Source: an uncultured Methanosarcinales archaeon
Lineage (GTDB): Archaea; Nanobdellota; Nanobdellia; Woesearchaeales; DSVV01
Direction of reading: 5' to 3'
Assembly (NCBI GenBank): GCA_964452935.1
Contig: CAYVNO010000009.1
Coordinates: forward strand, 2,106 to 66,105
DNA: 64,000 nt
Positions 13,620 through 62,887 of this stretch are shown piece by piece. The position numbers and the translations under genes are program-made. Every line of letters begins with the position of its first letter. The first letter of the stretch is position 1. The notes beneath the pieces were generated by a model. That model saw nothing but the letters and a program-made list of their open reading frames with translations. It did not search any database and was not told the DNA's origin.

Positions 13620-16484
13620 TCAACGCTGTATAAAATCAAAGAACCCATTATCTTGTATATGTGTATAAGCAGATCTAGATAAATTACCCTCCAACACACT
13701 TATAATTTTAGCATCACTATGTCCGAAAAATCTAAGATAAGCCATTGTCTCAAGAGATTTATCAGCTATCTCCATTCTCAAGGACTCATATCTTGCTTCA
13801 ACCCCCGAAACAATCGAACTTAACCTATCCTTCAACTCATCTCGCTCTCTTTCCAACTCGTTCTTATCAGTCCCAGGCAAAATTAATTCATTCCCCCTAA
13901 AATGAGCTGTATCAGAAGTCAAATTCCTCCAGTTAGTTCTCCAACCAACTTTTGAAGGAAACTTAACAGTATATTTATTTTTACTTGCATCAAATTTAGC
14001 CACAACTCCTTTTGTACCCTTTGGAATAAGACTATTCCTCTGATTCCAATATTTTTCATTCCACCCCTCCATTACATCATTGAAATTCACAACAACTTCA
14101 TCACCCTCTCTAAGATGTAAACATGGAATCAAATCAACTCGTTCTACTCTCTGCATCTCTGCCCCATTTAATTTATATCCATCATACTGATAATCCTCCT
14201 TTTTTACCAAAGCTAAAAAACGAGGCTCATACCCGTTATAATAAGAATCAAACTTTCCAACAACACCTACAGGCAATTTATTTACAGTAGTACCATCTGA
14301 ATATACTCCTCCATTCAGAGCCCTAACTGTCACCAAGAAATCTCCTCTTCTTAACGGACCGTCAACAGGAACATATGTATCAGAACTCAAATTTAACAAC
14401 CTATTCTTAAATTTATTAAAACTAGTTTGTGAAGAAACATATCTTGGAACATTAACTAAGACTCCAAACTCTTCCATTAATTGGTGATTAATCTCATCAA
14501 CCATCTCCCTATAATTCAAACGAGAAACCAAACCATCAACAACTTTAAAGAGAGACTCATCCATCAACTGTCCACTAAAAAAGTTATTACTTACATTAAT
14601 AATAGAAAATAACATACCAATTGCTGAATCAGAAACACCAAGCCCATACAAATCATAAATCCATTTTTGAACATGACCTCTAATCTTTGAATCTTTCTCT
14701 CGAATCTCTGCCTCTGCTTCATATATAATGCTATCTAATGCCCCAACAATATCATCTCTTACTCTCATTTCCTCATCAAATCCCTCAAAATGTTCTGTAT
14801 AATCATCATCTCCTGGTTTGAATAAACAAAGATAATCAGTAGGAATATCCAACACCAAAGGAATTCCATCATCCTCAGAAGTAACTTGTGGAAACTCGAC
14901 CTCTGCCCTACCTCGAGAACTTCTTAACACTCTCCCCCATGTTCCTCTTCCAACAAAATCGTGCAAATGATTACGTCTAACAAAAATCTCATCTCCATCC
15001 TTAATACCTCCATAAGGAGTATACATAAGATGTTTAAGATCAACACCACCAACAGCCTTTCGAGGATCATTGAAATAGTCTAAGACATTCCCTTCCTTAA
15101 CATCATATACAACCTTAATCTTTGCTTTACCACCTGCCACACTCAAGACCCGAGCACGACTACCATTCTCTACTGAATAATCTCCACCAACAATCTCAAC
15201 ATAATCATTATTTTTAATACCAAAAGGATTACCAAACTCAACTCTCTCAAGCACTTGTAAATCATCTACATCAAAATGATGATAATCCCAAGTAGAAGAA
15301 AAACTAACTTTCCACTTACCAGTATGAAGAAAACTACTTAAATTTGCAATAGAACCTAAAGGATACCTACTAGTTGCTCTCTCAGTCCTAACTATGTCCT
15401 TCTCCTTGAACTCACTTGGATTTCTATCAACCTGCCTATACAACTTCAAGTTTAATACCCTCAATTTACGTCTAAAAACATTATAATCTCCCTTAGAATG
15501 AAAACTTCTATTCTTATCAAACACAACACCAACTCTATCTTCTAATAAATCACATATTTTTCCAACAATTCCCCTATAACCCATCTTGATTGCATGCAAA
15601 GCCTCAAACTCTTTTTTCATCTTTGATAACATTCCTTTACCATAAGCAATCATAATAGTATGTTCTCTAACTTCTTCATCAACCACTGCTACACTCTCAA
15701 CACCATTCAAGACACCAGAAGCAAGATAAAATGAGTAAGGTAAAAGAGAGGACAGTGGTCTAGAAACATCACCCACCATTCCGATAATCTCACCTCTCTT
15801 CCTCCCTCTTGCCCTTCTTAAACTCGTTGCAATAGTTGCAAGCTGTGCAAGTTCATCAGAATGACCCACATTAATATACTCCAACCTATCCTCAAAACCT
15901 CTAACTAAATCATAAACAACAGACGACACCATTCTTAAGTTGGGATCTAACTCAACAGTATCAAAAATGTCTTGTTCATCGACTATTAATTTCCTCTCTA
16001 AAGTATTCTTTTGATCATCATCAACCTGAAAATCACCAGGTAAAACAATATCAAGATCATCAAAAGAATGAATCCTATTAACATATCCCTTACCAATAGA
16101 CTCAACAACAGAAAAAACATCATCCGCATCAATTCCTGTGCAAGAGATAGGAACACCTAACTCCCTTCCAAATTTCCCAGCAAAAACACTAGCAGCTAAC
16201 ACAGAACTACTTGGTTCAGTTTTTAATAAATCTTTTATAAATCCTTGATCATAATTATTATCCAATAAATATAACAATAAAAAAACATGCAACAATCCAG
16301 TACTAGAAAGTCTTTTGATAGTATCAATAGAATAAACCTTTCTTTCTTTCAAGATCCTTGCAATCCTTAACTTAGGATCAAAATCAGGAGAACTAAGATC
16401 AAACTCCTCCTCTGGCTCAACTACAGCCGTCGCTTGAGTATACAGAGCTACAGCCTCTGCAACATCACATTCTTCTGCAGCCAT
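13620..16484 (-). CDS. Large hypothetical protein with about five SH3/KOW-like beta modules
   Basis: Recurrent pattern (F/I/L)xxGDxV...G..G.V......V.F, e.g. IKDGDEIFV..GTWGRV..AEVEF and LREGDEVVV..GTKGVV..YTVKF. Confidence 0.6.
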   Translation of the reverse strand: MAAEECDVAEAVALYTQATAVVEPEEEFDLSSPDFDPKLRIARILKERKVYSIDTIKRLSSTGLLHVFLLLYLLDNNYDQGFIKDLLKTEPSSSVLAASVFAGKFGRELGVPISCTGIDADDVFSVVESIGKGYVNRIHSFDDLDIVLPGDFQVDDDQKNTLERKLIVDEQDIFDTVELDPNLRMVSSVVYDLVRGFEDRLEYINVGHSDELAQLATIATSLRRARGRKRGEIIGMVGDVSRPLSSLLPYSFYLASGVLNGVESVAVVDEEVREHTIMIAYGKGMLSKMKKEFEALHAIKMGYRGIVGKICDLLEDRVGVVFDKNRSFHSKGDYNVFRRKLRVLNLKLYRQVDRNPSEFKEKDIVRTERATSRYPLGSIANLSSFLHTGKWKVSFSSTWDYHHFDVDDLQVLERVEFGNPFGIKNNDYVEIVGGDYSVENGSRARVLSVAGGKAKIKVVYDVKEGNVLDYFNDPRKAVGGVDLKHLMYTPYGGIKDGDEIFVRRNHLHDFVGRGTWGRVLRSSRGRAEVEFPQVTSEDDGIPLVLDIPTDYLCLFKPGDDDYTEHFEGFDEEMRVRDDIVGALDSIIYEAEAEIREKDSKIRGHVQKWIYDLYGLGVSDSAIGMLFSIINVSNNFFSGQLMDESLFKVVDGLVSRLNYREMVDEINHQLMEEFGVLVNVPRYVSSQTSFNKFKNRLLNLSSDTYVPVDGPLRRGDFLVTVRALNGGVYSDGTTVNKLPVGVVGKFDSYYNGYEPRFLALVKKEDYQYDGYKLNGAEMQRVERVDLIPCLHLREGDEVVVNFNDVMEGWNEKYWNQRNSLIPKGTKGVVAKFDASKNKYTVKFPSKVGWRTNWRNLTSDTAHFRGNELILPGTDKNELERERDELKDRLSSIVSGVEARYESLRMEIADKSLETMAYLRFFGHSDAKIISVLEGNLSRSAYTHIQDNGFFDFIQR

Positions 16485-16485
16485 C

Positions 16486-17964
16486 TTATTCTACCTCTCT
16501 CTGACTATGAAAATCCATAACATCCTCATTAGTAACTGTCAAATCCAAAGGTTCAAAATCATAACAATCGCAAGGAGTATTCAACCTTCTTGTTCCAATC
16601 CTATTCTCATTATCATATCTAAAGGTTTGTTCACCATTAAACGGCTCACCAAACTTTCCTGGTTCATAAATCGTAAAAATATCAAGCACAGCAGCAATCG
16701 CTGCAATTGCATTTGTTGTAACAACAGCTGCATCAGGATTATCAGCACAACTCGCTCTCCTTATCATCTCTTCCTTTCTACCTTTTTCATAAATCTTGAA
16801 CAAACAATCCTGACATCTTGTCTTTCCATCAACCTGTAAATTCCATCTTCCTAAATAAGGTTTAGCACCAGCACTAACTAACGGAATATCATTGACAACA
16901 GCATACGCAGTAACAATCGCTCTTGTATACCAATTATCAACAAAATCAAGAACTAAATCATAATCCCTCTCTGTCTGAAAATCCGGAGTAAGTTTAACAT
17001 CATATCCATCTGATTTTGTTCTTCCTCTACTCATCTTAACAATCTTCTCTGCAAGATGTAACGCCTTAGAACAACCAACACCATCCTCTCCAATACTATC
17101 ATAACCTAAAATCTGTCTATGTAAATTAGTTGCATCAAAACGATCATAATCAAAAACATCAACTCTTCCAAAACTAATCTTTGATAATAAAATCGCACCC
17201 CATCCACCTAAACCTCCTGCACCAATCAAAGCAACATCTAAATCTCTATAAATTCTGGAGTCATACCTAGGAATAACTTCTCCTTTTCCAGGAAACCCTA
17301 CCCTCTTTTCTCCACCAAGTCTATACCTAAAAGGTTTTATAAGAAAATTCTTCTCTTCTCCAAAAATAATCTTTCTAACCTCTTCTGCAAGAACACCACC
17401 CATCAACAAAGCCATAAACTCATCTTGCTCATGACCTTCAAACATCGGCATAAAATAAGCAGGATCTTTATTCCCAAAATCACAAAGCATTGTTTTAGTA
17501 TACCCCCACATAGAAGAAGTACTTAAAACAGGAATTCCTTTCTCTTTTCCATAACTATATGCTAACCTTTTTGATCTCATTGAATTAGTTGCATCAATAA
17601 TAACATCAGAACTCTTTAAAACCAACTGATCAATCCTTGTCTCTAAATTTGTCGGATACCCTTCAATATTAATACCTGGATTAATCAAATTTAACAATCT
17701 AGAATAACCCAAAGATTTTGGACCACTAGGAACATCAATGTCAAGAAACATCTCACCATTAACATCTTCTCCGTCGACAAGAACAATATTACCAACACCT
17801 AAAGCTGCTAAACACAACGCACTGTAAACACCTTGATGACCTAAACCAACAACAACAGCCCTAGCATTATTAAGTTTTCTCTGCCCTTCAATCCCCCATA
17901 TACGGAGCTGTCTATCATAATACTGAATATCGATGTCCTCGTCAATCACATCATCATGAGCCAT
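16486..17964 (-). CDS. Tandem ThiF/E1-like ubiquitin-activating enzyme
   Basis: Domain 1: YDRQLRIWGIEGQRKL..VVGLGHQG (degenerate). Domain 2: IGAGGLGG, D..NLHRQ, CQDC, RASC, PCDC. Confidence 0.85.
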   Translation of the reverse strand: MAHDDVIDEDIDIQYYDRQLRIWGIEGQRKLNNARAVVVGLGHQGVYSALCLAALGVGNIVLVDGEDVNGEMFLDIDVPSGPKSLGYSRLLNLINPGINIEGYPTNLETRIDQLVLKSSDVIIDATNSMRSKRLAYSYGKEKGIPVLSTSSMWGYTKTMLCDFGNKDPAYFMPMFEGHEQDEFMALLMGGVLAEEVRKIIFGEEKNFLIKPFRYRLGGEKRVGFPGKGEVIPRYDSRIYRDLDVALIGAGGLGGWGAILLSKISFGRVDVFDYDRFDATNLHRQILGYDSIGEDGVGCSKALHLAEKIVKMSRGRTKSDGYDVKLTPDFQTERDYDLVLDFVDNWYTRAIVTAYAVVNDIPLVSAGAKPYLGRWNLQVDGKTRCQDCLFKIYEKGRKEEMIRRASCADNPDAAVVTTNAIAAIAAVLDIFTIYEPGKFGEPFNGEQTFRYDNENRIGTRRLNTPCDCYDFEPLDLTVTNEDVMDFHSQREVE

Positions 17965-17986
17965 GTTCTACTCCATCACCCTCTAA

Positions 17987-19900
17987 CTATACTTCCAAAA
18001 CTTTATATCCACCATGAACAAGACCAACATATCTTTCTAACAAATCACTCTTCTCCTCTGGACTTCTAGCAGTAATAAAGCCTCTCATAAAACTCATTGT
18101 AAAATCATCATCAAGATCTTCAATCTCATCAACAATATTTCTAACCATTGCATCATATTGATATTTCTGTCTAAAAAAAGTGTGTTCCCCAACAACTTCA
18201 GGATGATCAGCAACAATCTCTCCAACTCTCAACACAGAAGCCCTTAACCCAAAATAAGGTTCAAACTCCTCTACATCCTCAACACCTTCACTAGCTTCAA
18301 TCGCAACAGAAACCCCCCTATAGTTTGCACCAAGATAATCAAGTAACTCATCCACATAAGTCGAATACCTACAACTCTCACCTCTAAAATGCATTAAATA
18401 AGAACTTAACTCCATCACAAACATACCCACAACATCCTCACGAGTATATTTATCCTCTGTTTTATCTACTTGATCTTCTAATTTCTCTTGAATTACCCAA
18501 GGAAGATCATTAACACAACTTCTAGATGGAGTAACAACCTGCCCTCCCTGCATAACCATGTCCACTAATGTATCCTCTCCATCATCAATATCATCTTGCC
18601 CATACCATTCATTCAACTCACCAGGAGTAATCAACGAATTAATTCTATCTTGAACACTTGATCTACGAATTACTCTACGAACTGGTTGTCTAGGAACTGT
18701 TCGATTATCTTGATCATACCAAAACCGCCCTGAACCTAGACTATTAATACCACCACCATAAAACCCTTCTTCTATAGGTTCAGTAGCACGTGTTTGCCAT
18801 ACATGAGGACCAACAACCAACCCTCCTGCTTGTGCATACCTACGACGAGGTATACGAGGTCTTGGTTTAGGAGGTAAAACAAGTCTCTCTTGAACCAAAT
18901 CACTAACTTCATCCATTGTAAGAACATGTCTTCCATCATCAAAAATCTCTATCGGCACATTTTCAACAGTACCATATTTCACCTGACCACTTAATTTATA
19001 TTTATCCTCATAAGCAATCTCAACATAAGGTTCTCCTAACTTATCATCATAAACAAAACTAAATGCAACACTAACTAACCTTGGCTCAAACGTCCTCTCA
19101 TCCATAATATCTAACAGTCTTGCAAAAAAATCAGATTTATTAAAACTATCAAGATCTGGTTTTAAACCAAAATCATTTAACAACGCAAAAAAAGCCTGAT
19201 CATTAGGAAAAACAAACTCCCTAACAAAATCCTCTAGATCATGTCCTCTCAAAACCTTACCTTCTTCAGTAAATTCTTCTTTTATCCTATCCTGAATCAA
19301 AAGATAAGGCGAATCAAACCTTTGCCTTGTTACCTCTGCCACTTTGTTAAGAAGTTTAGGAAACTCATGATCATCTTTTGAACTATGCTCAACACCACAC
19401 ACAGATCCTGGATGCACATGAAACATTCCACATAAAACAAAATCAGTCCCCATTTCACTATTTATCCTCTGCATCTCATAACCTGCCATCGGAAACTGCT
19501 CAGCAAATTTAACCCCATCTGTATAAACCTTTAACCCTTTTGGAACAACAAACTCAGATAAATCAAATGAAAAATCACCCCTAGTCATAGCATATAAACC
19601 ACCAGATTCAACAGGTCTATCATCAATCTCTCTTACAGCAACACCAATAGATTTACCAAACTGATAACATCTTCTTGATATCCTAACTTTTTCAGGAAGA
19701 TAATCAGTAACAGGAGGAATTACAGGCTTCTCTGGTCTACCTTCAAACCCAGTTATCATATCAAGAGCATGTGCAGCCATAGCACTATTAGTAAGAATAG
19801 AAGGTCCTGTAAAATCACAACTACCGCCAACACAACTATCTTCTTCTCTTTCACGTCTTCTTTTTTCAGACCTTCTCATTCTTGCTCCTCTACCACTCAT
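17987..19900 (-). CDS. JAB/MPN+ metallo-isopeptidase-domain protein
   Basis: VESGGLY ... GMFHVHP ... HSSKDD matches the E...HxH...SxxD JAMM motif; adjacent to the E1. Confidence 0.65.
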   Translation of the reverse strand: MSGRGARMRRSEKRRREREEDSCVGGSCDFTGPSILTNSAMAAHALDMITGFEGRPEKPVIPPVTDYLPEKVRISRRCYQFGKSIGVAVREIDDRPVESGGLYAMTRGDFSFDLSEFVVPKGLKVYTDGVKFAEQFPMAGYEMQRINSEMGTDFVLCGMFHVHPGSVCGVEHSSKDDHEFPKLLNKVAEVTRQRFDSPYLLIQDRIKEEFTEEGKVLRGHDLEDFVREFVFPNDQAFFALLNDFGLKPDLDSFNKSDFFARLLDIMDERTFEPRLVSVAFSFVYDDKLGEPYVEIAYEDKYKLSGQVKYGTVENVPIEIFDDGRHVLTMDEVSDLVQERLVLPPKPRPRIPRRRYAQAGGLVVGPHVWQTRATEPIEEGFYGGGINSLGSGRFWYDQDNRTVPRQPVRRVIRRSSVQDRINSLITPGELNEWYGQDDIDDGEDTLVDMVMQGGQVVTPSRSCVNDLPWVIQEKLEDQVDKTEDKYTREDVVGMFVMELSSYLMHFRGESCRYSTYVDELLDYLGANYRGVSVAIEASEGVEDVEEFEPYFGLRASVLRVGEIVADHPEVVGEHTFFRQKYQYDAMVRNIVDEIEDLDDDFTMSFMRGFITARSPEEKSDLLERYVGLVHGGYKVLEV

Positions 19901-19962
19901 TTTCCACACCTTTCCTCTGAAAAAATAATTCTTTTCTCAAACATTTGCACCAACTCCATAAA

Positions 19963-21441
19963 TTATGATCGAGCAGTCTTCATAACACGACCACTTCTAC
20001 TAACATGTTTAGGCAGCACATCATAAACCTCATAGCCATTACTCATCGCCTCTTCCCTTGTCAAAGGTTTAATACCATTTTTCTCAAAAACATCATCTAC
20101 CTGTCCTGGACCATAAACTAACCCAACAGGTTCATGCCTTTTTATAGAAGAAGGGTTTAGCTGATGTCTAATAACATCAACGCCTGCATTCAATTTTCTA
20201 ACTAACTCAGATGGAGAATCCCCATAACTACGATGATTAGCTCTTGAATCACAAATCGGATCAAAAGGCATTGGATCACGATGTTTAATCTCTAAACTAA
20301 GAACATGTTTAGCAGGATCAACAACAACAGGATCAGAACCTGAATACACCTTATTATTACGCCAATAACAAGATAACTTAAGAGCAATTTTCATAGAAGG
20401 GTATGGCCAATAATTCTCACCATTCCTGCCATCCTGTATCGCAAACTTAGGAATTTGTTTATAAACATAACATCCCTCATCACGCCTAATAAAACCACAA
20501 CCACCAAAATCATACTCTTGCTTTCCTAACAAAGCATTTATCATTTTTTCATCCAAAAAACTCCCTCTGCCTATTGAAACATGATTCTCAGTAGAATGTT
20601 CAAGTGCCTGAAAGTGTAAACCCTCAATCATCCTAGACATAAGCTGCTCTGTTAAGTTAGAAAAATAATAGGATACAGAGTTTGAAGGAACATAATATCT
20701 CCCATTTAACACAAAAACCATATCTCTTCTTCTCTTTGACGGAACATCACTCTGAGAAATCTTATTCAAAGTATACACCCTATTACTATTAACATATAAC
20801 GGCTGATGACCAATAATTCCTCCAAAAACAGACGGCAGAATATCACTTTCATTGAGTCCCATATCCTTCAAACCATATTTAACACCAACAACAGAATCTG
20901 TCTTTAACTCTTTTCTTTTTTTTTCTAAAAGTTGTTCTCTTAATCTTACATTAACTTCTGTCTCATCTGGTTCTCCAACACCAAACTCTTCCTCTAACCT
21001 TAGTCTCATCGTATTCCTAGCTCTCTCCAAAGGAGTCTCTGTCTCTGTCTCTCCAGTTAACTGTCTAAGCATAGCACTCCCCAAATCACCATATTGGGCA
21101 GCTACTAAGAATGGAACTAACTCATTAACTAAAAAACCAAGCACAAGAACAGAATATCTACCTGAACTATCAAGTTTAGATCTATACTGTCCAACAATAG
21201 AACGCTTAACAAAAGCATCACACTCTTCATCAATAGTTCTTCTTTGTGATTCAATATCTAAAGACTCAAAATAATGAAAAGGCATGGAAGAAGTCAAACC
21301 AAAAGATCTGTCACCAACAATAACTCTATGTAAAGAACCCCTATCATCAGAATCAGAAATACTATAAACTCTATCTCCAAAAAATACAAAAGAGGATTGC
21401 CTCTCGACAATCGCATCCAAAAAAGTTGTTATTTTTGTCAT
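19963..21441 (-). CDS. Hypothetical protein, possible C-terminal E2-like domain
   Basis: C-terminal YP...P.V....H......PICD recalls the UBC HPN..ICL region; operon context. Confidence 0.4.
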   Translation of the reverse strand: MTKITTFLDAIVERQSSFVFFGDRVYSISDSDDRGSLHRVIVGDRSFGLTSSMPFHYFESLDIESQRRTIDEECDAFVKRSIVGQYRSKLDSSGRYSVLVLGFLVNELVPFLVAAQYGDLGSAMLRQLTGETETETPLERARNTMRLRLEEEFGVGEPDETEVNVRLREQLLEKKRKELKTDSVVGVKYGLKDMGLNESDILPSVFGGIIGHQPLYVNSNRVYTLNKISQSDVPSKRRRDMVFVLNGRYYVPSNSVSYYFSNLTEQLMSRMIEGLHFQALEHSTENHVSIGRGSFLDEKMINALLGKQEYDFGGCGFIRRDEGCYVYKQIPKFAIQDGRNGENYWPYPSMKIALKLSCYWRNNKVYSGSDPVVVDPAKHVLSLEIKHRDPMPFDPICDSRANHRSYGDSPSELVRKLNAGVDVIRHQLNPSSIKRHEPVGLVYGPGQVDDVFEKNGIKPLTREEAMSNGYEVYDVLPKHVSRSGRVMKTARS

Positions 21442-21467
21442 CTATCATTCAATCCCTCTCAAAAAAG

Positions 21468-22178
21468 TTAAGCATGGTAATCCTCACGTCTTTGATAACC
21501 TTTTCCAGGACTAATCTCAGCTGATACAACCACATCGAGTGCACTATAAACTTCAATAGGTCTTCCTCCCCGCTCAATTAAAACATGATCTGAAGTCAGA
21601 TCTGATGTAGGTATTACTGCTGGATTACCATCATCTCCCCTAACAAATGTACACAATGTAAGGAAACTATTCAATGAAGAATTTCCTGTAACCTGTTGTC
21701 CATTTGCTGTAACTGTGTATCCATCATGATAAGCTCTAGGCCCTTGTTCTGCAATAACTGCCTTAATAAGAGGACCATCACCTGTTACCTCCTGTCTAAG
21801 TCTATCAACAGGCTCCCTTTGTAATCTATCATCGCCGAGAGTTCGTGCTTCAAAAAAAACAGTAGCTCCTTTTTTTACCGGTTCACCAATAGCATATTTA
21901 ATAACTTGTTCAGCAGTATAACCAAGAACAATATCCCTTTCATCTCCAGTAAAAGAGTATATAAATTTTGAATGCTCGCCACCGTCTTCACAACCTGAAT
22001 AAAAGTTTACCATAATTGGCGTATCACCTACATCTGCTAAACTAAGAGGTGTACTTGAAACATATGAGCTATCTTCTAAACTCCTTGCTCTTTTTCCTCT
22101 ACAATCATCAACCTGAGGTGCATCTTGTTTTGGACCACCTTTATTTTTTCTTCTCCTTCTTCTTCTTTTTTCTGCCAT
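21468..22178 (-). CDS. Hypothetical protein, possible beta-grasp ubiquitin-like modifier
   Basis: TAEQVIKYAI helix, YTVTANGQQV..SSL, final strand LDVVVSAE then PGKG plus a 9-aa extension; operon context. Confidence 0.4.
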   Translation of the reverse strand: MAEKRRRRRRKNKGGPKQDAPQVDDCRGKRARSLEDSSYVSSTPLSLADVGDTPIMVNFYSGCEDGGEHSKFIYSFTGDERDIVLGYTAEQVIKYAIGEPVKKGATVFFEARTLGDDRLQREPVDRLRQEVTGDGPLIKAVIAEQGPRAYHDGYTVTANGQQVTGNSSLNSFLTLCTFVRGDDGNPAVIPTSDLTSDHVLIERGGRPIEVYSALDVVVSAEISPGKGYQRREDYHA

Positions 22179-22235
22179 TTTTCTAAACCTCCCATATGAT
22201 TATCTTACTTTTCATTCACCACTTTTTCAAAATTA

Positions 22236-23219
22236 TTAAGATAAATTGTGATACTTAATCACTCCCCTATCTTTATATATAATGCCTGCTGTCATTACCT
22301 CATCAGGATCTCCATCAACACCTAAATCTTTCATTTGATAAACTAATCTTGTATCAAGATTTGGGTCAACATAAGTTACAACTGCAATATCCCACACCTC
22401 ATCTGGATCATCCATTGACGGTGCTTCAATAACATGCCTTAATACCAAAGGAACCTGAAAATCTTTTCTCCCAAAAATAGGGTCAGGAACAATTATATGT
22501 CCATCATTAGCACAATGAGTTCTCCATTCTCCTTTATTTAACCTACTTTTTTTAAGCTGATCTAATACAAGACTCTCCAAATGAAGATAGGATAACAAAA
22601 CCATATCCGGCACTCCTGGTCCTTTTGTTTGTAACCCGCCAGCACATGCAAACTCTTCATAATCTTTCCCAGCACCAGCACTGACACCTAGCGGATCACT
22701 AGTAATATCAAATTCCAAATCACCTAACCTAAAATTACCATCTAACTCATCAGCTGTCGGATAACCAGACGCAACAACAGGTATTTCCCTTTCTGAAGAA
22801 GAGCCCCAAGGATTTGCAAAACCTATAGCTCTTGCAGGACAATGTTCAGGATCTTCTGGCCTTCTAAAAAATACAAAACTCCCATCTCTATTTTCTGATG
22901 CTGCCCTATCAGCCTCTTCTTCAGCTGCTTTTGTCTTCATTCTTGCAGCCTGATCTAGCCATCCTTGTTGCATCCTATCAAAATAATCATCAATTGTAAC
23001 TCCTCTACCTAAAGTTCTATCAACATACCTCTCAACATAAAAATCAGCCCAGGTTTCACGACCAAGATGTATCCTATTATGACTATATGCTAAATAAACA
23101 GTAGGTCCACCATCCATAGACAACTCAACATGTGGTCCACCCTTTCTTCTAACAATTCTATGATTGACCTTATTCCTTTTCTTTGCTTTCTCATCTTGAA
23201 ACATTTTAGTCTGACCCAT
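22236..23219 (-). CDS. Hypothetical protein, first gene of the E1/JAB cluster
   Basis: 327-aa ORF co-oriented with the cluster; no family recognised. Confidence 0.6.
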   Translation of the reverse strand: MGQTKMFQDEKAKKRNKVNHRIVRRKGGPHVELSMDGGPTVYLAYSHNRIHLGRETWADFYVERYVDRTLGRGVTIDDYFDRMQQGWLDQAARMKTKAAEEEADRAASENRDGSFVFFRRPEDPEHCPARAIGFANPWGSSSEREIPVVASGYPTADELDGNFRLGDLEFDITSDPLGVSAGAGKDYEEFACAGGLQTKGPGVPDMVLLSYLHLESLVLDQLKKSRLNKGEWRTHCANDGHIIVPDPIFGRKDFQVPLVLRHVIEAPSMDDPDEVWDIAVVTYVDPNLDTRLVYQMKDLGVDGDPDEVMTAGIIYKDRGVIKYHNLS

Positions 23220-26006: not shown

Positions 26007-27671
26007 ATGGGAATCGGAGATATAACCACAGACATGGATGATAATCTAGAATATATGGAACAAGAAGAACTAGAAGAAGCAAGTGATCTAGAAGAGATAG
26101 ACGATGCAGAAAACCCTGTTGACATACCAAAAGAAGGAGAAGTATCAGAAGGAGACAACGGTTCATCAGTTGGCTTAGAAGCATTAACTCATATCTATAG
26201 AAAGCAGCTAGAACCACAAGAAAGCCCATATGAAAAAGAACATAAAAAAGCAGATAGAGAAGAAATATCTAAAAGCCCAACATATGCATATATGAGGGGG
26301 ATGGGAAAATATCCACTCTTATCAAGAGATGATGAAATAGAACTAGCAAAAAGAATAGAAGCTGGCCTAACTTACGGAGAATTTATTCTTATAAATGAAG
26401 AAACACTAGAATACGCAGTAGAAGCATACATAACAGCAGTTGTAAAAAAACCAAAAGATGAAAAACCAATTAGAGAATATGTTGAAAATGCAGAAACATC
26501 TGACGCAGTTATATATGTAAGAGAATTATATGAAGCCGAAAAAAGACAACACGGCAAAAGAGTTCCTGCATTAAATCAGTTAAGAAATCAAATCTATGCT
26601 TATTTCAAAGAAGCAGTTCTAGAACAAATAACAGCAGAAACTGTAGAGACAACCGCAAGTTTTTTTCATAGAAAAAGTGGAAGAAGAGAAAGAGAAGCAT
26701 ACATCAGCGAACTAGGAACAAATAAGCATAATACAAAAAGAATAGTAGAAACAACTAAAAAATATGCTAGAACACTACCAATCCACAAATTATTCGAATT
26801 ATACCAAGAACTAGATGAAAGACATGATAACGGGAATAACACATTAGACACAATAACAAGTATGCACCTTTTTGAAAGAAGAAATATATACAACGATAAA
26901 CTAGGAAATTATAAAACACATGATAGTCTTGCAGCAAAAGAAGATTTAATAACGGCAAATCTCAGACTTGTCGTAAGTATCGCAAAAAGATACACATATC
27001 ATGGAATCCCACTTTTAGATCTAGTCCAAGAAGGAAATATAGGTTTAATGAGAGCTACTGAAAAGTTCGAACACCGAAGAGGATACAAATTCTCAACATA
27101 TGCTCATTGGTGGATCAGACAAGCAATAACTAGATCAATCGCAGACACAAAAGGAACAATAAGAATTCCTGTACACCTAAGAGAAGTAATAAATAAAATA
27201 GACAGATTTGAGAGAAATTTCTTAACAACTGAAGGAAGAGGACCAACTATAGATGAAATCGCAGCCCAGATAGAAAAACCACTCAAAAAAACAAAAGAAA
27301 TCCTAGAATCCATGAGACTAGGAAAAACATACTCATTAGATGCAAAACCTTCAGGAACAGGAGAAGAAGAAACAAGTACGCTCGGAGATTTTATACCAGA
27401 CACTAATGTAGCTAGTTCAGATGAAATATTAACAGAAAATCAACTCCGTGATAGAACAAGAGAAGTACTCTCAAAACTAACACCAAGAGAAGAAAGAGTT
27501 CTAAGATTAAGAATGGGGATAGGAGTAGAAGGTGGAACCCAATCACTAGAAGAAGTAGGACAAGAATTCCAAGTAACAAGAGAAAGAATCAGACAAATAG
27601 AAGCAAAAGCATTAAGAAAACTCAGACACCCCTCTAGAGCTGAGCTACTGAGAATATTTGCTGAAGACTAA
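26007..27671 (+). CDS. rpoD: RpoD-like (group 1) sigma-70 factor
   Basis: Region 1.2 [24 protein letters not shown]; region 2 [28 protein letters not shown]...[15 protein letters not shown]; region 3 IRIPVH; region 4 [28 protein letters not shown]. Confidence 0.93.
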
Positions 27672-29124: not shown

Positions 29125-29394
29125 ATGGCAAAAACAATACAAATCGAAAAAACACATTCCCCCACATTAAATACTATCTATATGGTAGAGGAAACACTAA
29201 AAGATGGAGAATTAATAACACTCGCAGAATTAAAAAGAAAACTTCCAAAGAAAGTTATGCACAACACATTACTACAAATACTTGATTATCTACAAATCAG
29301 CGGGAAAATATTAATTGGTACAAAAGGAATACTATGGATTTTTACAGAAAGAAAAGAGCTGAACAGATTAATAGAAAAAGGAACAGAGGTTTAA
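29125..29394 (+). CDS. Winged-HTH protein, probable antitoxin
   Basis: PTLNTIYMVE..ITLAELKRKLPKKVMHNTLLQILDYL; directly upstream of a RelE-like ORF. Confidence 0.65.
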   Translation: MAKTIQIEKTHSPTLNTIYMVEETLKDGELITLAELKRKLPKKVMHNTLLQILDYLQISGKILIGTKGILWIFTERKELNRLIEKGTEV

Positions 29395-29705
29395 CTAGAA
29401 ATATAAGAATCATTCTCCTAGACAACGCAGAAAAAATATACAAAACAACAAAAGATAAGAAATTACTCAATTCTATAAAACAAAAGATTGAATTTATCAA
29501 AAACAACCCATTCTATGGAAATAATATACCAAAAGACAGAATGCCAAGAAGTTACAACTGTCAAAACCTGTGGAGAACTCATTTACATGACTACTGGAGA
29601 CTATTATATACAATCAAAGGAGATGAAAAAGAAATAATATGCTTCATCGTAGATATTCTCAACCATAAAGATTATAATAAGAAATTCGGCTATAGAAAAA
29701 AGTGA
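29334..29705 (+). CDS. RelE/ParE-like toxin (start uncertain)
   Basis: IEFIKNNPFYG, NLWR..L..YWRLLYTI, IVDILNHKDY. Confidence 0.6.
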   Translation: MDFYRKKRAEQINRKRNRGLTRNIRIILLDNAEKIYKTTKDKKLLNSIKQKIEFIKNNPFYGNNIPKDRMPRSYNCQNLWRTHLHDYWRLLYTIKGDEKEIICFIVDILNHKDYNKKFGYRKK

Positions 29706-32458
29706 AAATCTTTATAAACCTCCCTTCCCACCAAATTTCTACAATGCTAACCAACAAACCAGAACCAAAACAATTTGTTATGCCAATTCTTATTTTTATT
29801 TTGATTGTATTCTTTATGTCAATATCAACAATAGTTAAACTAATCACAGACTATTGGTGGTTTCAAGCACTAAACTTTGAACAGATATTCCTAATATCAT
29901 TAAAAGCCAAGTTATTCCTATTCTTAATAACAGCTTCAATATTCTTCGTATTTGCCATATTAAACCTAATAATATGCTCATTTTTTAACAAAACAAAGAT
30001 TAAATTCAAACTTAAGCTATTAATAACTCTAATAATTTCAATTTTAATTGGAGCAGCATACTCACAGAACTGGTTCTCAGTCCTACAATACTTAAATCAG
30101 ACACCATTCAATCTACAAGATCCAATATTCTTTAAAGACGTTGCATTCTATATCTTCTCATTACCATTTATCTTAACAGCATGGAAGTTTGCAATAACTG
30201 TGATAGTCATAACAGCAATCCTAATAACTCTAGACTACCTTTCATCAGCATTATTAGATAAGGTAAAACAACCAAAAGTCATTGACCCAGAAAAACCACA
30301 ACAAAAACCTGATCTATTAAAACAACTTTTATCAAACAATAAAGCGGTCTACCACGTCTTCATCCTAGGTTCAATCTTTTTCGCATTATTAGCTATCTAC
30401 CATTATGTATCTAGATTCTCAATAATGTATTCAGAAGCAGGAATTGTAGTCGGAGCAGGATACACAGATGTTCACATATTTCTTCCAATCCTAAAACTAC
30501 TATCAATCTTAGCAATAATAATAGCACTATTCTTCTATGTCTGGATATTTTACATATCCAAACATCAAAAAATAAGAAAGAGACATATCCTAATGTATAT
30601 AGTGATTGTTTACTTACTAACATTCTTCATAGCACCATCAGTAATACCAGGGATAGTACAGTCATTAAAAGTCTCACCAAACGAAATGAATCTAGAACAA
30701 CCATTCATTGAGAACAATATAAGATTCACAAGAATAGCATATAATCTAGACAATGTAGAAGAAATAGATTTTGATGTACAACTATCATTAACACCAGAGA
30801 TACTAGAGAATGAAACTGAAATAATAGACAACATAAGAATCCTAGACTGGAGACCACTAACACAAACATACAAACAAACACAAGAAATTAGATTATATTA
30901 CGACTTATCAGAGATAGATATCGATCGTTACAACATAGACGGAAAATATACCCAAGTACTACTCTCAGCAAGAGAGCTAGATCAACAACAAATTGCAGAA
31001 AACGCAAAAACATGGGTTAACCTTCATGAAGTATATACGCATGGATTTGGAGTTGTAATGAGTCCTGTAAACGCAGTAACAGATCAAGGTCTTCCAAACT
31101 ATTTAATCAAAGATATCCCACCAACAACAGAAGAACCAATCCTTGAAATAGACAACCCAAGAATATACTATGGAGAAAAAGACAATGATTATGTTCTTGT
31201 AAACACTAAAACAGATGAGTTTGATTATCCAAAAGGAAACACAAACGAATACATAAATTACGACGGCAACGGAGGAATAGTACTTGACACATTCACAAAA
31301 AAACTATTAATGGCCATTAGATTCATGGATATAAAGATCCTACTCTCAACAGACATTACATCAGAATCAAAAATAATGTTTAATAGAAACATACAAGACA
31401 GAATTTCAAAGATAACTCCATTTTTATTATTAGATGAAGATCCATATTTAGTAATAAATGAAGGAAAGCTATTCTGGATACAAGACGCATACACAATATC
31501 TGGAAATTTCCCTTACTCTGAAAAGATAGGTGGAATAAACTACATGAGAAACCCAGTTAAGATAATCGTTGACACATATAACGGAGATGTAACATATTAC
31601 ATCATAGACGACAGTGACCCACTCATGGAAACATACTCAAATATATTCCCAGAAGAATTCAAAACATATGAAGAATTCCCTGAAGGATTAAAAGAACACA
31701 TAAGATATCCAGAAGGGTTATTCAAGGTTCAGACATACATCTACAACGATTACCACATGGATGACGCAACAGTGTTCTATAACAAAGAAGACGCATGGGA
31801 AACACCTAGTGAAGTTTATGGAACAGGACAAGAAGTAGATGTAGAACCATATTACATAATTACAAAACTACCCGAAGAAGAAACAGAGGAATTCATCCTT
31901 ATGACCTCGTTCACACCATTAAAAAAAGATAACATGATCGCATGGATGGCAGCGAGATCAGACGGAGACAACTACGGAAAGTTATTACTATACAAATTCT
32001 CTAAAGACAAACTTGTCTATGGACCATTACAAATAGAAGCTAAGTTTGACCAAGACTCAGAGATATCACAACAACTAACACTATGGTCTCAACAAGGATC
32101 AAGAGTAACAAGAGGAAATCTGTTAGTGATTCCAATCAAGGACAGCATCCTATACATTGAACCACTTTATATCCAAGCAGAAACAGGACAACTACCTGAA
32201 CTAAAAAGAGTTCTTGTTTCAGATGGTGAAAGAGTAGTCATGGAAATAGATTTAGCAACTGCCCTAGAAGCATTGTTTGGTAAAGCAACAACAAAAACTA
32301 CAACTACAACACTCCAAGAAGATAAAACAAACGAAGAGTTAATCTCAGAAGCACAAACATACTACAATAATATGGAAAACAATGCAGGAACTAACTGGAC
32401 AGCATACGGAGAAAACTTTGACAGACTCGGAGAAATACTAGGAAAACTAATAGAATAA
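29702..32458 (+). CDS. UPF0182 (COG1615) family membrane protein
   Basis: TDYWWF, DPIF.KDV.FY.F.LP, GAGYTDV, NIRILD, YTHGFG, PRIYYGE, WIQDAYT, RGNLLVIP; true start may be 14-26 codons downstream. Confidence 0.9.
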   Translation: MKIFINLPSHQISTMLTNKPEPKQFVMPILIFILIVFFMSISTIVKLITDYWWFQALNFEQIFLISLKAKLFLFLITASIFFVFAILNLIICSFFNKTKIKFKLKLLITLIISILIGAAYSQNWFSVLQYLNQTPFNLQDPIFFKDVAFYIFSLPFILTAWKFAITVIVITAILITLDYLSSALLDKVKQPKVIDPEKPQQKPDLLKQLLSNNKAVYHVFILGSIFFALLAIYHYVSRFSIMYSEAGIVVGAGYTDVHIFLPILKLLSILAIIIALFFYVWIFYISKHQKIRKRHILMYIVIVYLLTFFIAPSVIPGIVQSLKVSPNEMNLEQPFIENNIRFTRIAYNLDNVEEIDFDVQLSLTPEILENETEIIDNIRILDWRPLTQTYKQTQEIRLYYDLSEIDIDRYNIDGKYTQVLLSARELDQQQIAENAKTWVNLHEVYTHGFGVVMSPVNAVTDQGLPNYLIKDIPPTTEEPILEIDNPRIYYGEKDNDYVLVNTKTDEFDYPKGNTNEYINYDGNGGIVLDTFTKKLLMAIRFMDIKILLSTDITSESKIMFNRNIQDRISKITPFLLLDEDPYLVINEGKLFWIQDAYTISGNFPYSEKIGGINYMRNPVKIIVDTYNGDVTYYIIDDSDPLMETYSNIFPEEFKTYEEFPEGLKEHIRYPEGLFKVQTYIYNDYHMDDATVFYNKEDAWETPSEVYGTGQEVDVEPYYIITKLPEEETEEFILMTSFTPLKKDNMIAWMAARSDGDNYGKLLLYKFSKDKLVYGPLQIEAKFDQDSEISQQLTLWSQQGSRVTRGNLLVIPIKDSILYIEPLYIQAETGQLPELKRVLVSDGERVVMEIDLATALEALFGKATTKTTTTTLQEDKTNEELISEAQTYYNNMENNAGTNWTAYGENFDRLGEILGKLIE

Positions 32459-40473: not shown

Positions 40474-40692
40474 TTTACACCAACAATCTAAACAATAACA
40501 AACACACTACAATAAACAACAAAGTCCAAAAAAAGATACCTACATTTAACTTGAACTTTCTCTTATTCAAATGATAGTTCATAATAGTTGCTTTCATAAA
40601 CATAAGTAACCAAAATACAGTTATAAATGGTTGTAGTTATAAATATTACTACAGACATAAGATTTATATATCAGAACAACTTAATTACACAT

Positions 40693-41412: not shown

Positions 41413-41420
41413 CAAAAATA

Positions 41421-41451
41421 TTCCGATTTCTTCCAAGATATTTCCGGTTTT
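41421..41451. repeat. 31-bp dispersed repeat, copy B
   Basis: TTCCGATTTCTTCCAAGATATTTCCGGTTTT. Confidence 0.75.
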
Positions 41452-41513
41452 CGACGACAAAGCTTTTTAAAGAATAAAATAATACACAGATAAATGTATA
41501 TAAAGTCCAAAAA

Positions 41514-41852: not shown

Positions 41853-41906
41853 AGGAACAAGTAATAGTCCAATGTTTATAAATATTATCATTCAAAGTAC
41901 AAACTG

Positions 41907-42182: not shown

Positions 42183-42233
42183 TCACATTTAAAAATACAT
42201 ACTCATTTCTCTACATATTCAGGAGGGATAAAT

Positions 42234-62758: not shown

Positions 62759-62785
62759 ACGTAGCTCAGACTGGGAGAGCGCTAG

Positions 62786-62806: not shown

Positions 62807-62813
62807 ACTGAAG

Positions 62814-62870: not shown

Positions 62871-62887
62871 ATCTAGATGTCCTGGGT

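What the first reader, a model, noticed from the sequence alone, without database searches (positions are those of the whole stretch)
13620..23219. Six-gene ubiquitin-like conjugation cluster inserted between secF and valS
The co-oriented genes are: hypothetical, candidate Ubl, candidate E2-like, JAB isopeptidase, tandem E1, and a large SH3-like repeat protein. E1 and JAB are well supported by motifs, and no ThiS/MoaD/MoaE/ThiI sulfur-relay genes are nearby. Established: prokaryotic E1-E2-JAB-Ubl operons include anti-phage systems (Bil, type II CBASS). This gene set and architecture match none that I recognise, so it may be an undescribed protein-conjugation or defence system.
Basis: partly seen in the sequence, partly recalled or inferred. 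Interest (0 to 1): 0.8.

Follow-up and report, generated by a model that had tools for sequence, protein, structure and literature searches.

The report
Ubiquitin-like tagging operon in DPANN archaeon
A small symbiotic-type archaeon carries a compact operon for a ubiquitin-like tag, its trimming protease, an activating enzyme and a carrier enzyme, built like recently found bacterial antiviral tagging systems but made of protein families that no database yet names.

Summary
Six co-oriented, tightly packed genes lie at 13620-23219 on the minus strand, between valS and secF. Two relatives have valS directly next to secF, so the block is an insertion.

Five genes form a cassette conserved in 13 DPANN (Woesearchaeota/Nanoarchaeota-labelled) loci:
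- **Ubl:** a beta-grasp protein with an invariant C-terminal Gly225 followed by an 11-residue tail.
- **E2:** a UBC-fold protein with an invariant Cys397 and an HP motif.
- **JAB:** a JAMM peptidase with an intact E..HxH..SxxD motif.
- **E1:** a single chain with a degenerate plus an active ThiF domain.
- **Partner:** a 954-aa protein with probable SH3-like modules.

The first gene (327 aa) is an orphan and not part of the cassette.

Only the E1 matches Pfam, NCBIfam, PADLOC or PHROGs. The E2 family has 473 representative clusters and no Pfam model in the 44 members scanned.

Gene order, two-domain E1 and tail-carrying Ubl parallel bacterial type II BilABCD. The E1 lacks Bil's helical Cys domain, and sequence-level membership was not shown.

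Related cassettes carry a cysteine-desulfurase-like gene and radical-SAM genes, or AAA+ unfoldases. The biological role is therefore open: defence, proteolysis or sulfur transfer.

Verdict: a new archaeal variant of a known kind of system.

The parts
22236..23219 (-). 327-aa orphan ORF, co-oriented, 57 nt upstream of the Ubl gene. Probably not part of the cassette.
   Evidence: It has no match in the related loci. It has no Pfam, NCBIfam, PADLOC or PHROGs family. It has no database homologue and no Atlas hit.
21468..22178 (-). Ubl precursor (236 aa). It has a basic N-terminal tail and a beta-grasp fold whose last strand (residues 209-223) follows an insertion of about 100 residues.
21471..21506 (-). 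Predicted maturation site: the Gly225 codon (21504-21506) followed by the 11-residue tail KGYQRREDYHA (21471-21503), which is presumed to be removed by the JAB peptidase.
   Evidence: The conserved motif 'VVSAxIxPG' is followed by a tail of variable length and sequence in 11 of 11 family members. In the wider family the small ORF upstream of the E2 ends in GG plus a 1-13 residue tail in 10 of 18 loci and in a single G plus tail in 5-6 of 18. Cleavage itself is inferred.
19963..21441 (-). E2-like protein (492 aa). It has a UBC core (helix about 92-117, sheet 309-374, helices 400-457) interrupted by a helical and small beta insertion. The candidate catalytic residue is Cys397 (codon 20251-20253).
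17987..19909 (-). JAMM/MPN+ metallopeptidase (640 aa). The JAB domain spans about 90-180 and is followed by family-specific regions. Motif codons: E101 (19607-19609) and H164 to D179 (19373-19420).
   Evidence: E101, H164, H166, S176 and D179 are invariant in 16 of 16 sequences. All 27 PDB chains hit by the profile are JAMM deubiquitinases: BRCC36 1.6e-5, archaeal Rpn11-like 0.004, RPN11, BilC 0.11, CSN5 and AMSH.
16486..17964 (-). Single-chain pseudo-dimeric E1 (492 aa). An N-terminal degenerate ThiF domain (about 11-170) is followed by an active adenylation domain (about 240-452) with Cys406 in a short crossover loop.
   Evidence: Pfam ThiF scores 4.5e-51 in 2 stretches, placed by NCBIfam. 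In domain 2, G248, G250, D272, N280, R283, Q284, D340, D343, C384, C406, C465 and C467 are invariant, and G253 is at least 90% conserved, across 15 sequences. Domain 1 keeps GxGxxG but lacks NxxRQ and the second Asp. The best PDB matches are MoeB, ThiF and the SUMO E1, at about 1e-19.
13620..16484 (-). 954-aa partner protein with four probable SH3-like beta-barrel modules in two pairs (residues about 420-550 = nt 14835-15227, and about 708-856 = nt 13917-14363). It is a candidate adaptor or target.
   Evidence: A member of this family follows the E1 in 13 of 13 loci. Only sub-threshold hints exist for the fold: SH3_15 in 3 of 14 members (best E 0.038), DUF2098, SH3_12 and SH3_13. Seventeen of 19 weak PDB hits (PsaE and two HECTD1 chains) fall on one module, with E 0.04-1.4. 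An internal duplication aligns 300-465 with 655-847, z = 5.0 against 200 shuffles. No structure was predicted.

Best explanation
This is a five-gene ubiquitin-like protein-conjugation cassette of DPANN archaea, laid out like bacterial BilABCD.

**Proposed mechanism.**
1. The 236-aa beta-grasp protein is made as a precursor.
2. The JAMM peptidase cuts after Gly225 and removes the 11-residue tail.
3. The active (second) ThiF domain of the single-chain E1 adenylates Gly225. The degenerate first domain plays the part of the second protomer of a ThiF/MoeB dimer.
4. The Ubl passes as a thioester to E1 Cys406, in a short crossover loop.
5. It then passes to Cys397 of the UBC-fold E2.
6. It is finally attached to lysines of targets. 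The 954-aa protein with SH3-like modules acts as substrate adaptor or as the principal target.
7. The same JAMM peptidase can reverse the modification.

**Shown here:** folds, motifs, invariant residues, gene order, conserved linkage and the insertion.

**Inferred:** every chemical step, the role of the 954-aa protein and the biological purpose.

**Likely purpose.** My best guess is an accessory conflict or stress module. That could be antiviral tagging as in Bil, or tagging for an AAA+ unfoldase as the sister cassettes suggest. A housekeeping pathway is less likely.
For: **Components.**
- Ubl: beta-grasp model and invariant Gly225 followed by a variable tail.
- In sister cassettes the small ORF upstream of the E2 ends in GG plus a tail in 10 of 18 loci. 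The same is true in the genome's own second system.
- E2: UBC fold. Cys397 is invariant and the HP motif is at least 90% conserved in 97 sequences.
- JAB: a complete JAMM motif is invariant in 16 of 16 sequences, and the profile hits only deubiquitinases in the PDB.
- E1: two ThiF stretches. ATP, Mg and Cys residues are kept only in the second.

**Linkage.**
- 13 of 13 loci have E1, JAB and a member of the 954-aa family. 12 of 13 have the E2; the remaining contig is cut.
- Among 20 further loci fetched around E2-like hits (3 of them duplicates of earlier loci), 18 have the E1 adjacent and 17 have the JAB.

**Accessory nature.**
- The E2-like family was found in 32 of 401 genomes of the phylum and in 29 of 281 genera. 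The JAB was found in 4 of 41 close relatives.
- The genomic neighbours differ between genomes.
- Two relatives show an empty site with valS next to secF.

**Parallel with Bil.** Gene order, the IAD-plus-AAD E1 and pre-processing of the Ubl by the DUB are described in the passages read.
Against: - There is no biochemical evidence of any kind.
- By sequence the E1 is closest to MoeB and ThiF, which are sulfur-carrier activators.
- 7 of 13 related loci add a cysteine-desulfurase-like gene and 8 of 13 add radical-SAM genes.
- The window's E2 has HV instead of the consensus HP.
- The window's Ubl ends in Pro-Gly rather than Gly-Gly.
- No known defence gene is adjacent, and PADLOC recognises nothing but generic E1 similarity.
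- The fold of the 954-aa protein was not modelled.
Confidence: 0.68

Rival explanations
1. It is a sulfur-carrier pathway rather than protein tagging. The JAB exposes Gly225 and the E1 adenylates it. A cysteine desulfurase persulfide then converts it to a thiocarboxylate that feeds sulfur into a small molecule or RNA made with the radical-SAM enzymes. The UBC-like protein would serve as a persulfide or acyl relay. A dual role, as in the archaeal SAMP/UbaA system, is a softer version of this reading.
For: - A class-V aminotransferase (PF00266, about 1e-92) sits two genes upstream of the Ubl in 7 of 13 related loci.
- Radical-SAM proteins lie downstream in 8 of 13, one of them also with a B12-binding domain.
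- The E1's best PDB and NCBIfam matches are MoeB, ThiF, TcdA and Uba4.
- MoaD and SAMP1 appear among the structural matches of the Ubl.
- From recalled knowledge, JAB-trimmed sulfur carriers are established (CysO/Mec+, QbsE/QbsD).
Against: - The window's cassette and its genome lack the upstream 670-aa partner. They hold only generic radical-SAM matches, E 2.6e-6 and 5.4e-5 over about 65-80 residues.
- The five-gene core therefore stands without the sulfur and radical-SAM module.
- A conserved UBC-fold protein with an invariant Cys, and a fused inactive-plus-active E1, are hallmarks of conjugation cascades. They are not known in sulfur-carrier pathways; the absence of E2s from ThiS/MoaD pathways is stated in the passage read.
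- Sister cassettes carry AAA+ unfoldases instead.
Confidence: 0.15
2. The cascade conjugates the Ubl as in the best explanation, but its purpose is regulated unfolding or proteolysis. It would be a DPANN analogue of ubiquitin-proteasome, SAMP-PAN or Pup-Mpa, not antiviral defence. In the window's subfamily the unfoldase gene has been replaced by SH3-module proteins.
For: - A PAN-like ATPase gene (proteasomal ATPase OB domain plus AAA) lies directly upstream of the Ubl in L021 and L066. An AAA-only protein of the same size lies there in L080, and a cut copy in L074.
- A ClpX-like AAA_2 ATPase lies beside the JAB and E1 in L023 and L025, and downstream in L070.
- The JAB profile is closest to BRCC36-type and Rpn11-type deubiquitinases.
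Against: - No AAA+ gene is in or next to the window's cassette.
- The distribution is patchy, 32 of 401 genomes. Together with the hotspot insertion, this fits an accessory or conflict module better than core proteostasis.
- The linkage to AAA+ genes was seen in only 7 of the roughly 30 distinct loci examined.
Confidence: 0.25
3. The grouping has no joint function. It would be a ThiF paralogue and a JAB peptidase lying by chance beside unrelated large ORFs.
For: Four of the six genes have no database family. The complex prediction gave no verdict.
Against: - The same order is kept at 25-57% protein identity in 13 loci with different flanking genes.
- The E2-JAB-E1 triad is seen in 17 of 20 further loci.
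- The gaps between genes are 1-57 nt.
Confidence: 0.02

Closest known systems
Bacterial type II BilABCD (Bil, 'bacterial ISG15-like') ubiquitination-like antiviral operons (Chambers et al., bioRxiv 10.1101/2023.09.26.559546, passages read; Gong et al., PMC11601603, sections 3 and 5 read)
   Same: Four genes lie in the order Ubl, E2, JAB peptidase, E1. [quoted passage not shown] The Ubl is made with a C-terminal extension after the reactive glycine that the JAB removes. The distribution is sparse.
   Different: - The E1 here has only about 20 residues between the CxxC site and the conserved NPxxxVV segment. It therefore has no room for Bil's roughly 80-residue helical CYS domain, and its Cys406 sits in a ThiF-like crossover loop.
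- The E2 (492 aa) and the JAB (640 aa) are several times larger and carry insertions and extra regions.
- The JAB profile matches BilC only at E 0.11. The E2 and Ubl profiles match no PDB chain by sequence.
- The host is a DPANN archaeon.
- A large protein with SH3-like modules is an obligatory fifth gene in this subfamily.
- An antiviral role has not been tested.
Bub ('6E'/DUF6527) bacterial ubiquitination-like operons
   Different: According to section 5 read, Bub operons fuse Ubl-E2 and JAB-E1, or E2-E1, and carry a DUF6527 serine protease. Here all four are separate genes, and no gene of the window, or of the related-locus genes scanned, gave a DUF6527 Pfam hit.
Eukaryote-like Ub/E1/E2/RING/Rpn11 operon of Caldiarchaeum subterraneum (PMC5654768 and PMC3082918, seen in search listings only)
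   Same: It is an archaeal operon with a Ubl, an E1, a UBC-type E2 and a JAMM peptidase. The archaeal Rpn11-like chain 6fjv is among the JAB profile's hits (E 0.004).
   Different: No RING or other recognisable E3 is present here. The E1 here is a fused two-domain chain. The Ubl is 236 aa with an insertion and a Pro-Gly end. The proteins are not recognised by Pfam UBC or ubiquitin models.
Archaeal SAMP/UbaA and bacterial ThiS/MoaD with ThiF/MoeB
   Same: The E1's active domain is most similar in sequence to ThiF, MoeB and UbaA. The Ubl has a beta-grasp fold with a C-terminal Gly. A cysteine-desulfurase-like gene is linked in 7 of 13 related loci.
   Different: Those systems have no E2 and use homodimeric one-domain E1s. 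All NCBIfam scores for the E1 here lie far below the equivalog cut-offs (for example ThiF 130 against 275 bits, UbaA 92 against 450 bits).

Membership tests
Type II BilABCD | Operon with separate Ubl, E2, JAB and E1 genes in that order | tested here: met
   The ORF order on the minus strand is 236 aa, 492 aa, 640 aa, 492 aa. The Bil order is taken from section 5 read.
Type II BilABCD | [quoted passage not shown] | tested here: met
   There are two ThiF stretches. NxxRQ, DxxDN and the Cys residues are conserved only in the second domain.
Type II BilABCD | Helical CYS domain of about 80 residues inserted in the crossover loop and carrying the catalytic cysteine | tested here: not met
   Only 18 residues lie between C387 and C406. 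The conserved segment after C406 follows at once in all 15 sequences.
Type II BilABCD | Sequence-level grouping of each protein with the BilA-D families | tested here: inconclusive
   The JAB profile matches BilC (8tyx_B) at E 0.11. No BilD chain is among the 60 E1 hits shown, out of 80 found. The E2 and Ubl profiles hit no PDB chain. No Bil profile library was available and the supplementary operon lists are closed.
Type II BilABCD | Protects the host against virus infection by tagging a virion protein | not testable with these tools
UBC/E2 superfamily | UBC fold: N-terminal helix, four-strand meander and C-terminal helices | tested here: met
UBC/E2 superfamily | Conserved catalytic Cys preceded by an HPN-like motif | tested here: met
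   C397 is invariant and H379/P380 are at least 90% conserved in 97 sequences. The window's own protein reads H379-V380. Superposition of C397 on the catalytic Cys of known E2s could not be checked residue by residue.
JAMM/MPN+ metallopeptidases | E..HxH..S..D zinc and catalytic motif | tested here: met
   E101, H164, H166, S176 and D179 are invariant in 16 of 16 sequences. All 27 PDB hits are JAMM enzymes. A Pfam Prok-JAB hit appears only in one paralogue, at E 0.0032 and below the cut-off.
E1 / ThiF-MoeB superfamily | Rossmann adenylation domain with GxGxxG, an Arg finger, an Mg-binding Asp and a crossover-loop Cys | tested here: met
   Pfam ThiF scores 173.7 bits against a cut-off of 28.1. 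The residues were verified and their conservation.
Ubiquitin-like beta-grasp modifiers | Beta-grasp fold ending in an exposed C-terminal Gly or Gly-Gly | tested here: met
   The fold is supported. G225 is invariant. GG plus a tail is seen in 10 of 18 sister loci. The window's own end is Pro-Gly and the fold carries an insertion of about 100 residues.
ThiS/MoaD-type sulfur-carrier pathway | Linked sulfur-transfer or acceptor enzymes (cysteine desulfurase, rhodanese, ThiG, MoaE, ThiI) and no E2 | tested here: not met
   The window has none of these genes and it does have an E2. However, 7 of 13 related loci carry a class-V aminotransferase, so the question stays open for those cassettes.
SH3-like beta-barrel repeats (954-aa protein) | Recognisable SH3, Tudor or MIB-HERC2-type barrel modules | tested here: inconclusive
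   Only sub-threshold matches were found: SH3_15 in 3 of 14 members at E 0.038 or weaker, and PsaE or HECTD1 domains at E 0.04-1.4. Internal duplication has z = 5.0.

The most novel reading that the evidence does not exclude
DPANN archaea carry their own diversified lineage of complete ubiquitination-type cascades: a GG-ended Ubl, a UBC-fold E2, a single-chain inactive-plus-active E1 and a BRCC36/Rpn11-like JAMM peptidase. These cascades are wired to different output modules: PAN-like or ClpX-like unfoldases, radical-SAM enzymes with a cysteine desulfurase, or SH3-module scaffolds. If so, the window's cassette is one output type of an undescribed archaeal tagging system that directs effectors or degradation during conflict with viruses or hosts. 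It would also be an archaeal counter-example to the proposal that pseudo-dimeric E1 cascades arose in bacteria.
Probability: 0.3. Interest if true: 0.85.

Novelty: new variant of a known kind. Interest (0 to 1): 0.62.

Why it matters
Complete E1-E2-Ubl-DUB cascades outside eukaryotes have so far been characterised in only a few bacterial families (Bil, Bub, CBASS Cap2/3) and in the Caldiarchaeum/Asgard-type operon.

This cassette shows that genome-reduced DPANN archaea hold a further family. It was found in 32 of 401 sampled genomes of the phylum, and its E2 family has 473 representative clusters. Its E2, Ubl and JAB proteins escape Pfam, NCBIfam, PADLOC and PHROGs.

The family combines a eukaryote-like fused inactive-plus-active E1 with a ThiF-like catalytic loop. 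That may be an intermediate architecture, which bears on how canonical E1s evolved and in which domain of life.

Its variable partners (AAA+ unfoldases, radical-SAM enzymes, SH3-module proteins) give testable handles on what prokaryotic ubiquitin-like tagging is used for.

It also offers new profile models for defence-system and annotation pipelines.

Tried and rejected
- **Complex prediction** of the E1 with the Ubl (residues 40-225): no verdict, score 0.00 against a mark of 0.32. This is not evidence either way.
- **Word-indexed protein searches.** The E2 query found only itself. The Ubl profile found 3 proteins including itself. The 327-aa ORF found nothing. The exhaustive profile search was needed to see the E2 family.
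- **ESM Atlas** for the 954-aa and 327-aa proteins: no usable hit and no stored model.
- **PDB sequence searches.** The single JAB protein gave only chance-level hits. The E2 profile gave nothing relevant; the best hit is IsdI at 0.007, on the inserted region. The Ubl profile gave nothing.
- **PADLOC.** Only generic CBASS 'E1-E2' similarity on the ThiF domains of the E1 was found, and nothing for the other five proteins. I do not file it as CBASS: there is no CD-NTase and no E1-E2 fusion.
- **PHROGs.** Only two unknown-function ThiF-like families matched the E1.
- **Viral contigs.** A scan with the E1 alignment gave 23 loci. All were short or low-identity generic ThiF matches, and no cassette was found.
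- **The 327-aa ORF as a diverged copy** of the 670-aa upstream gene of other loci, or of L018's 283-aa ORF: no similarity.
- **The radical-SAM proteins as paralogues of the 954-aa protein.** The similarity is limited to one segment of 33-63 residues, so they share at most one module.
- **Whole-chain Foldseek E-values** were weak for both models (best 0.023 and 0.2). I relied on the composition of the hit lists and on VIA alignments instead.
- **Literature.** Searches for DPANN, Woesearchaeota or Nanoarchaeota with ubiquitin, E1-like, E2-like, JAB, JAMM or ThiF listed no paper describing such a system. The only paper with all three terms is the Caldiarchaeum genome paper. Supplementary tables of Bil and Bub operons could not be opened, so archaeal members listed there cannot be excluded.

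Full report
**What is at the coordinates.**

The minus strand of 13620-23219 holds six co-oriented ORFs of 327, 236, 492, 640, 492 and 954 aa, exactly as described. The gaps between them are 57, 26, 53, 22 and 1 nt. The last gene ends 3 nt before secF, and valS ends 132 nt before the first gene.

The flanks are valS (PF00133, 1.6e-91) and SecF/SecD (PF02355). GC content is about 0.36 in the block against about 0.33 beside it, with the same strong strand skew.

The only RNA-family hit in the window is a tRNA spanning 143 nt, which ARAGORN did not call; the length suggests an intron. Titles of the related contigs read Woesearchaeota, Nanoarchaeota or 'archaeon'. The host therefore looks like a DPANN archaeon. 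Its assembly has 1.66 Mb in 49 contigs and is 90% complete.

**Database recognition.**

Only the fifth gene is recognised.
- Pfam gives ThiF at 4.5e-51 in two stretches.
- NCBIfam models (ThiF, MoeB, UbaA and others) match residues 11-170 and about 240-452, all far below their equivalog cut-offs.
- PADLOC gives only CBASS 'E1-E2' models on the ThiF parts.
- PHROGs gives two unknown ThiF-like families.
- The other five proteins have no Pfam, NCBIfam, PADLOC or PHROGs family.

**Conserved linkage.**

The JAB protein was found in 4 of 41 close relatives, counting the window's own genome. tblastn and phmmer showed the same neighbours there.

A scan of one genome per species with the E1 alignment returned 16 loci. 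Thirteen of them are DPANN loci with a two-domain E1. Iterated family HMMs gave these counts in the 13 loci:
- E1: 13 of 13.
- JAB: 13 of 13.
- A member of the 954-aa family right after the E1: 13 of 13, often followed by further copies.
- The 492-aa family: 12 of 13. The remaining contig starts inside the JAB.
- The 236-aa family: 10 of 13.

The 327-aa ORF has no counterpart anywhere. The unit is therefore a five-gene cassette.

The flanking genes differ between genomes. In 2 of 8 relatives examined, valS lies directly next to secF. In the closest relative (valS 77% identical) three unrelated ORFs fill a 2.9-kb gap. The cassette is thus an insertion into a variable spot.

**The Ubl.**

The family alignment shows a conserved last strand, 'GGVElVVSAxIxPG', with invariant Gly225. 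It is followed by tails that vary in length and sequence; the window's tail is 11 residues.

The AlphaFold model (11 sequences in the alignment) has pLDDT 82.2 and pTM 0.77. Foldseek's best rows are ISG15, a membrane-anchored ubiquitin-fold protein, Ubl3, Rad60 SLD2 and NEDD8, but at weak E-values of 0.02-0.5.

Strong independent support comes from sister cassettes. In 18 loci, the small ORF directly upstream of the E2-like gene ends as follows:
- '...(L/I)xVA(S/A)xQxGG' plus 1-13 further residues: 10 loci.
- A single Gly plus a tail: 5-6 loci.
- No such end: 2 loci, one of them cut by the contig end.

The window's own genome has a second small system on another contig whose 137-aa protein ends '...DEGGA'.

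**The E2-like protein.**

The exhaustive profile search found 473 representative clusters at E <= 1e-3, of which 97 are at <= 1e-30. None of the 44 members scanned has a Pfam family.

In a 97-sequence alignment G316 and Cys397 are invariant and His379/Pro380 are at least 90% conserved. This gives an 'HP...(17)...C' pattern reminiscent of the HPN...C of E2s. The window's protein itself reads His-Val.

The model has pLDDT 89.2. The structural searches gave:
- Foldseek: the best rows include Cdc34, UBC13 and UEV proteins at E 0.2-0.8.

The UBC core is discontinuous. It comprises a helix at about 92-117, the sheet at 309-374, a loop carrying H379 and C397, and helices at 400-457.

**The JAB.**

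Across 16 homologues only eight columns are invariant. Five of them are E101, H164, H166, S176 and D179, which is the JAMM motif.

The profile hits 27 PDB sequences, all of them JAMM deubiquitinases: BRCC36 1.6e-5, the archaeal Rpn11-like protein 0.004, RPN11, BilC 0.11, CSN5 and AMSH.

**The E1.**

Fifteen sequences keep the following residues in the second domain:
- GxGxxG: G248, G250 and G253 (G253 at least 90% conserved, the others invariant).
- D272.
- NxxRQ: N280, R283 and Q284.
- DxVDN: D340 and D343.
- The Zn-type cysteines C384, C465 and C467.
- Cys406 in 'RRASC', only 18 residues after C387.

The first domain keeps a GxGxxG but lacks NxxRQ, the second Asp and the cysteines.

The protein is therefore a fused inactive-plus-active E1 whose catalytic loop is ThiF/MoeB-like. 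The best PDB matches are MoeB, ThiF, the SUMO E1, TcdA and Uba4 at about 1e-19. BubCD (8e-9) and Cap2 (1e-8) are weaker.

**The 954-aa protein.**

No family matches it. Sub-threshold hints point to SH3-like barrels:
- SH3_15 in 3 of 14 members, best E 0.038.
- DUF2098, SH3_12, SH3_13 and a MOV-10 barrel, once each.
- Seventeen of 19 weak PDB hits (E 0.04-1.4) are PsaE or two HECTD1 chains, all on one module. That these are SH3-like barrels (the HECTD1 chains being its MIB/HERC2 domain) is recalled knowledge.

Four segments share a 'GDxV...G..G.V...V.F' pattern. The two halves align (300-465 with 655-847) at z = 5.0 against 200 shuffles, with a score of 70 against a shuffle maximum of 65.

**Wider family and accessory genes.**

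The E2-like family was found in 32 of 401 sampled genomes of the phylum and in 29 of 281 genera. Of 20 loci fetched around such hits, three duplicate earlier loci. In these 20, the E1 is adjacent in 18 and the JAB in 17, mostly in the order E2-JAB-E1.

Accessory genes differ by subfamily.

In the window's subfamily:
- 7 of 13 loci carry a class-V aminotransferase (about 505 aa, PF00266 about 1e-92) and an unknown Cys-rich protein of about 670 aa upstream.
- 8 of 13 loci carry one to three radical-SAM proteins downstream, mostly of 750-880 aa; two loci instead or in addition carry a 450-aa B12-binding-type one.
- Some loci add HD and inositol-monophosphatase-family genes.
- These radical-SAM proteins share only one segment of 33-63 residues with the 954-aa family.
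- The window's genome lacks the 670-aa gene and has only generic radical-SAM matches.

In more distant subfamilies:
- A PAN-like ATPase (proteasomal OB domain plus AAA) lies directly upstream of the Ubl in L021 and L066.
- An AAA-only protein of similar size lies there in L080, and a cut copy in L074.
- A ClpX-like AAA_2 ATPase lies beside the JAB and E1 in L023 (labelled Deltaproteobacteria) and L025, and downstream in L070.

No close relative of the E1 was found on viral contigs.

**Interpretation.**

The parts and their conserved residues fit a complete Ubl cascade:
1. The JAB trims the tail after Gly225.
2. The second ThiF domain adenylates Gly225.
3. Thioesters form on E1 Cys406 and then on E2 Cys397.
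4. The Ubl is transferred to targets, with the protein bearing SH3-like modules as adaptor or target.

All of the chemistry is inferred.

The layout matches bacterial BilABCD in three respects: the gene order Ubl-E2-JAB-E1, the inactive-plus-active E1, and a DUB that exposes the C-terminal glycine (section 5 of PMC11601603; passages of 10.1101/2023.09.26.559546).

One defining Bil feature was tested and not met. That is the helical CYS insertion of about 80 residues. Sequence-level grouping with Bil proteins was not shown.

I therefore say that it works like Bil but do not file it as a Bil member.

The sulfur-carrier rival draws real support from the linked desulfurase-like and radical-SAM genes in related loci and from the E1's ThiF/MoeB affinity. 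Against it stand the conserved E2, the fused E1 and the self-sufficient five-gene core of this window. A dual role, as in the SAMP system, remains possible.

The biological purpose stays open. The patchy distribution and the hotspot insertion favour an accessory or conflict role. The AAA+ linkage in sister cassettes favours tagging for unfolding or degradation.

**Novelty.**

Four literature searches combined DPANN, Woesearchaeota or Nanoarchaeota with ubiquitin-system terms. They listed no description of such a system. Supplementary operon tables could not be opened.

I rate it a new variant of a known kind. It is an archaeal, database-invisible lineage of E1-E2-JAB-Ubl cassettes with a hybrid E1 architecture and unusual partners.

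Noticed in passing
window 32471-56522 (minus strand): An array of 14 tandem paralogous genes (328-525 aa) each ends in a PEP-utilizers mobile domain (PF00391). They lie next to a PPDK_N gene (32471-33415), a hexapeptide transferase (33412-34545) and a phosphate acetyl/butyryl transferase (52512-53492). Three plus-strand genes at 40627-43181 interrupt the array. This is a striking expansion of unknown purpose.
   Followed up: no
window 26007-27671 (+): A 554-aa ORF carries all four bacterial sigma-70 regions (r1.2, r2, r3 and r4, E down to 1.8e-21) in what otherwise looks like a DPANN archaeal genome.
   Followed up: no
G000 contig C2, locus L028:1-2409: The same genome has a second, smaller Ubl system at a contig end. 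It comprises a 137-aa protein ending in GG plus one residue, a 383-aa E2-like protein and an E1 cut by the contig end, with no JAB between them.
   Followed up: partly
L011:2010-5622 and equivalents in L012-L014, L017-L019: The cysteine-desulfurase-like gene is followed by an unknown protein of about 670 aa with a conserved Cys-rich C-terminal region ('CPTGGCF...GGCCGGGN'). It has no Pfam family.
   Followed up: partly
L021:5271-6755, L066:10156-11649, L080:3135-4607, L023:7748-8860, L025:7386-8486, L070:14921-16384: PAN-like or ClpX-like AAA+ ATPase genes are embedded in sister Ubl-E2-JAB-E1 cassettes. One of these contigs is labelled Deltaproteobacteria.
   Followed up: partly
L075:15769-17424 and L078:15073-16458: Ser/Thr protein kinase genes lie shortly downstream of the E1 in two distant cassettes. 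They are followed by cytidylyltransferase-like and pyruvate kinase genes.
   Followed up: no
window 62759-62901 (+): An Rfam tRNA hit just above the gathering score (29.5 against 29 bits) spans 143 nt, which suggests an intron. ARAGORN found no tRNA in the window.
   Followed up: no
window 29334-32458 (+): A weak YoeB-like toxin ORF (E 1e-5, below the cut-off) lies directly upstream of a 918-aa UPF0182 protein.
   Followed up: no
L054:6840-9569 (G004, closest relative): In the closest relative the valS-secF gap holds three unrelated ORFs of 149, 275 and 392 aa, the last on the opposite strand. This intergenic spot is therefore variable among relatives.
   Followed up: partly
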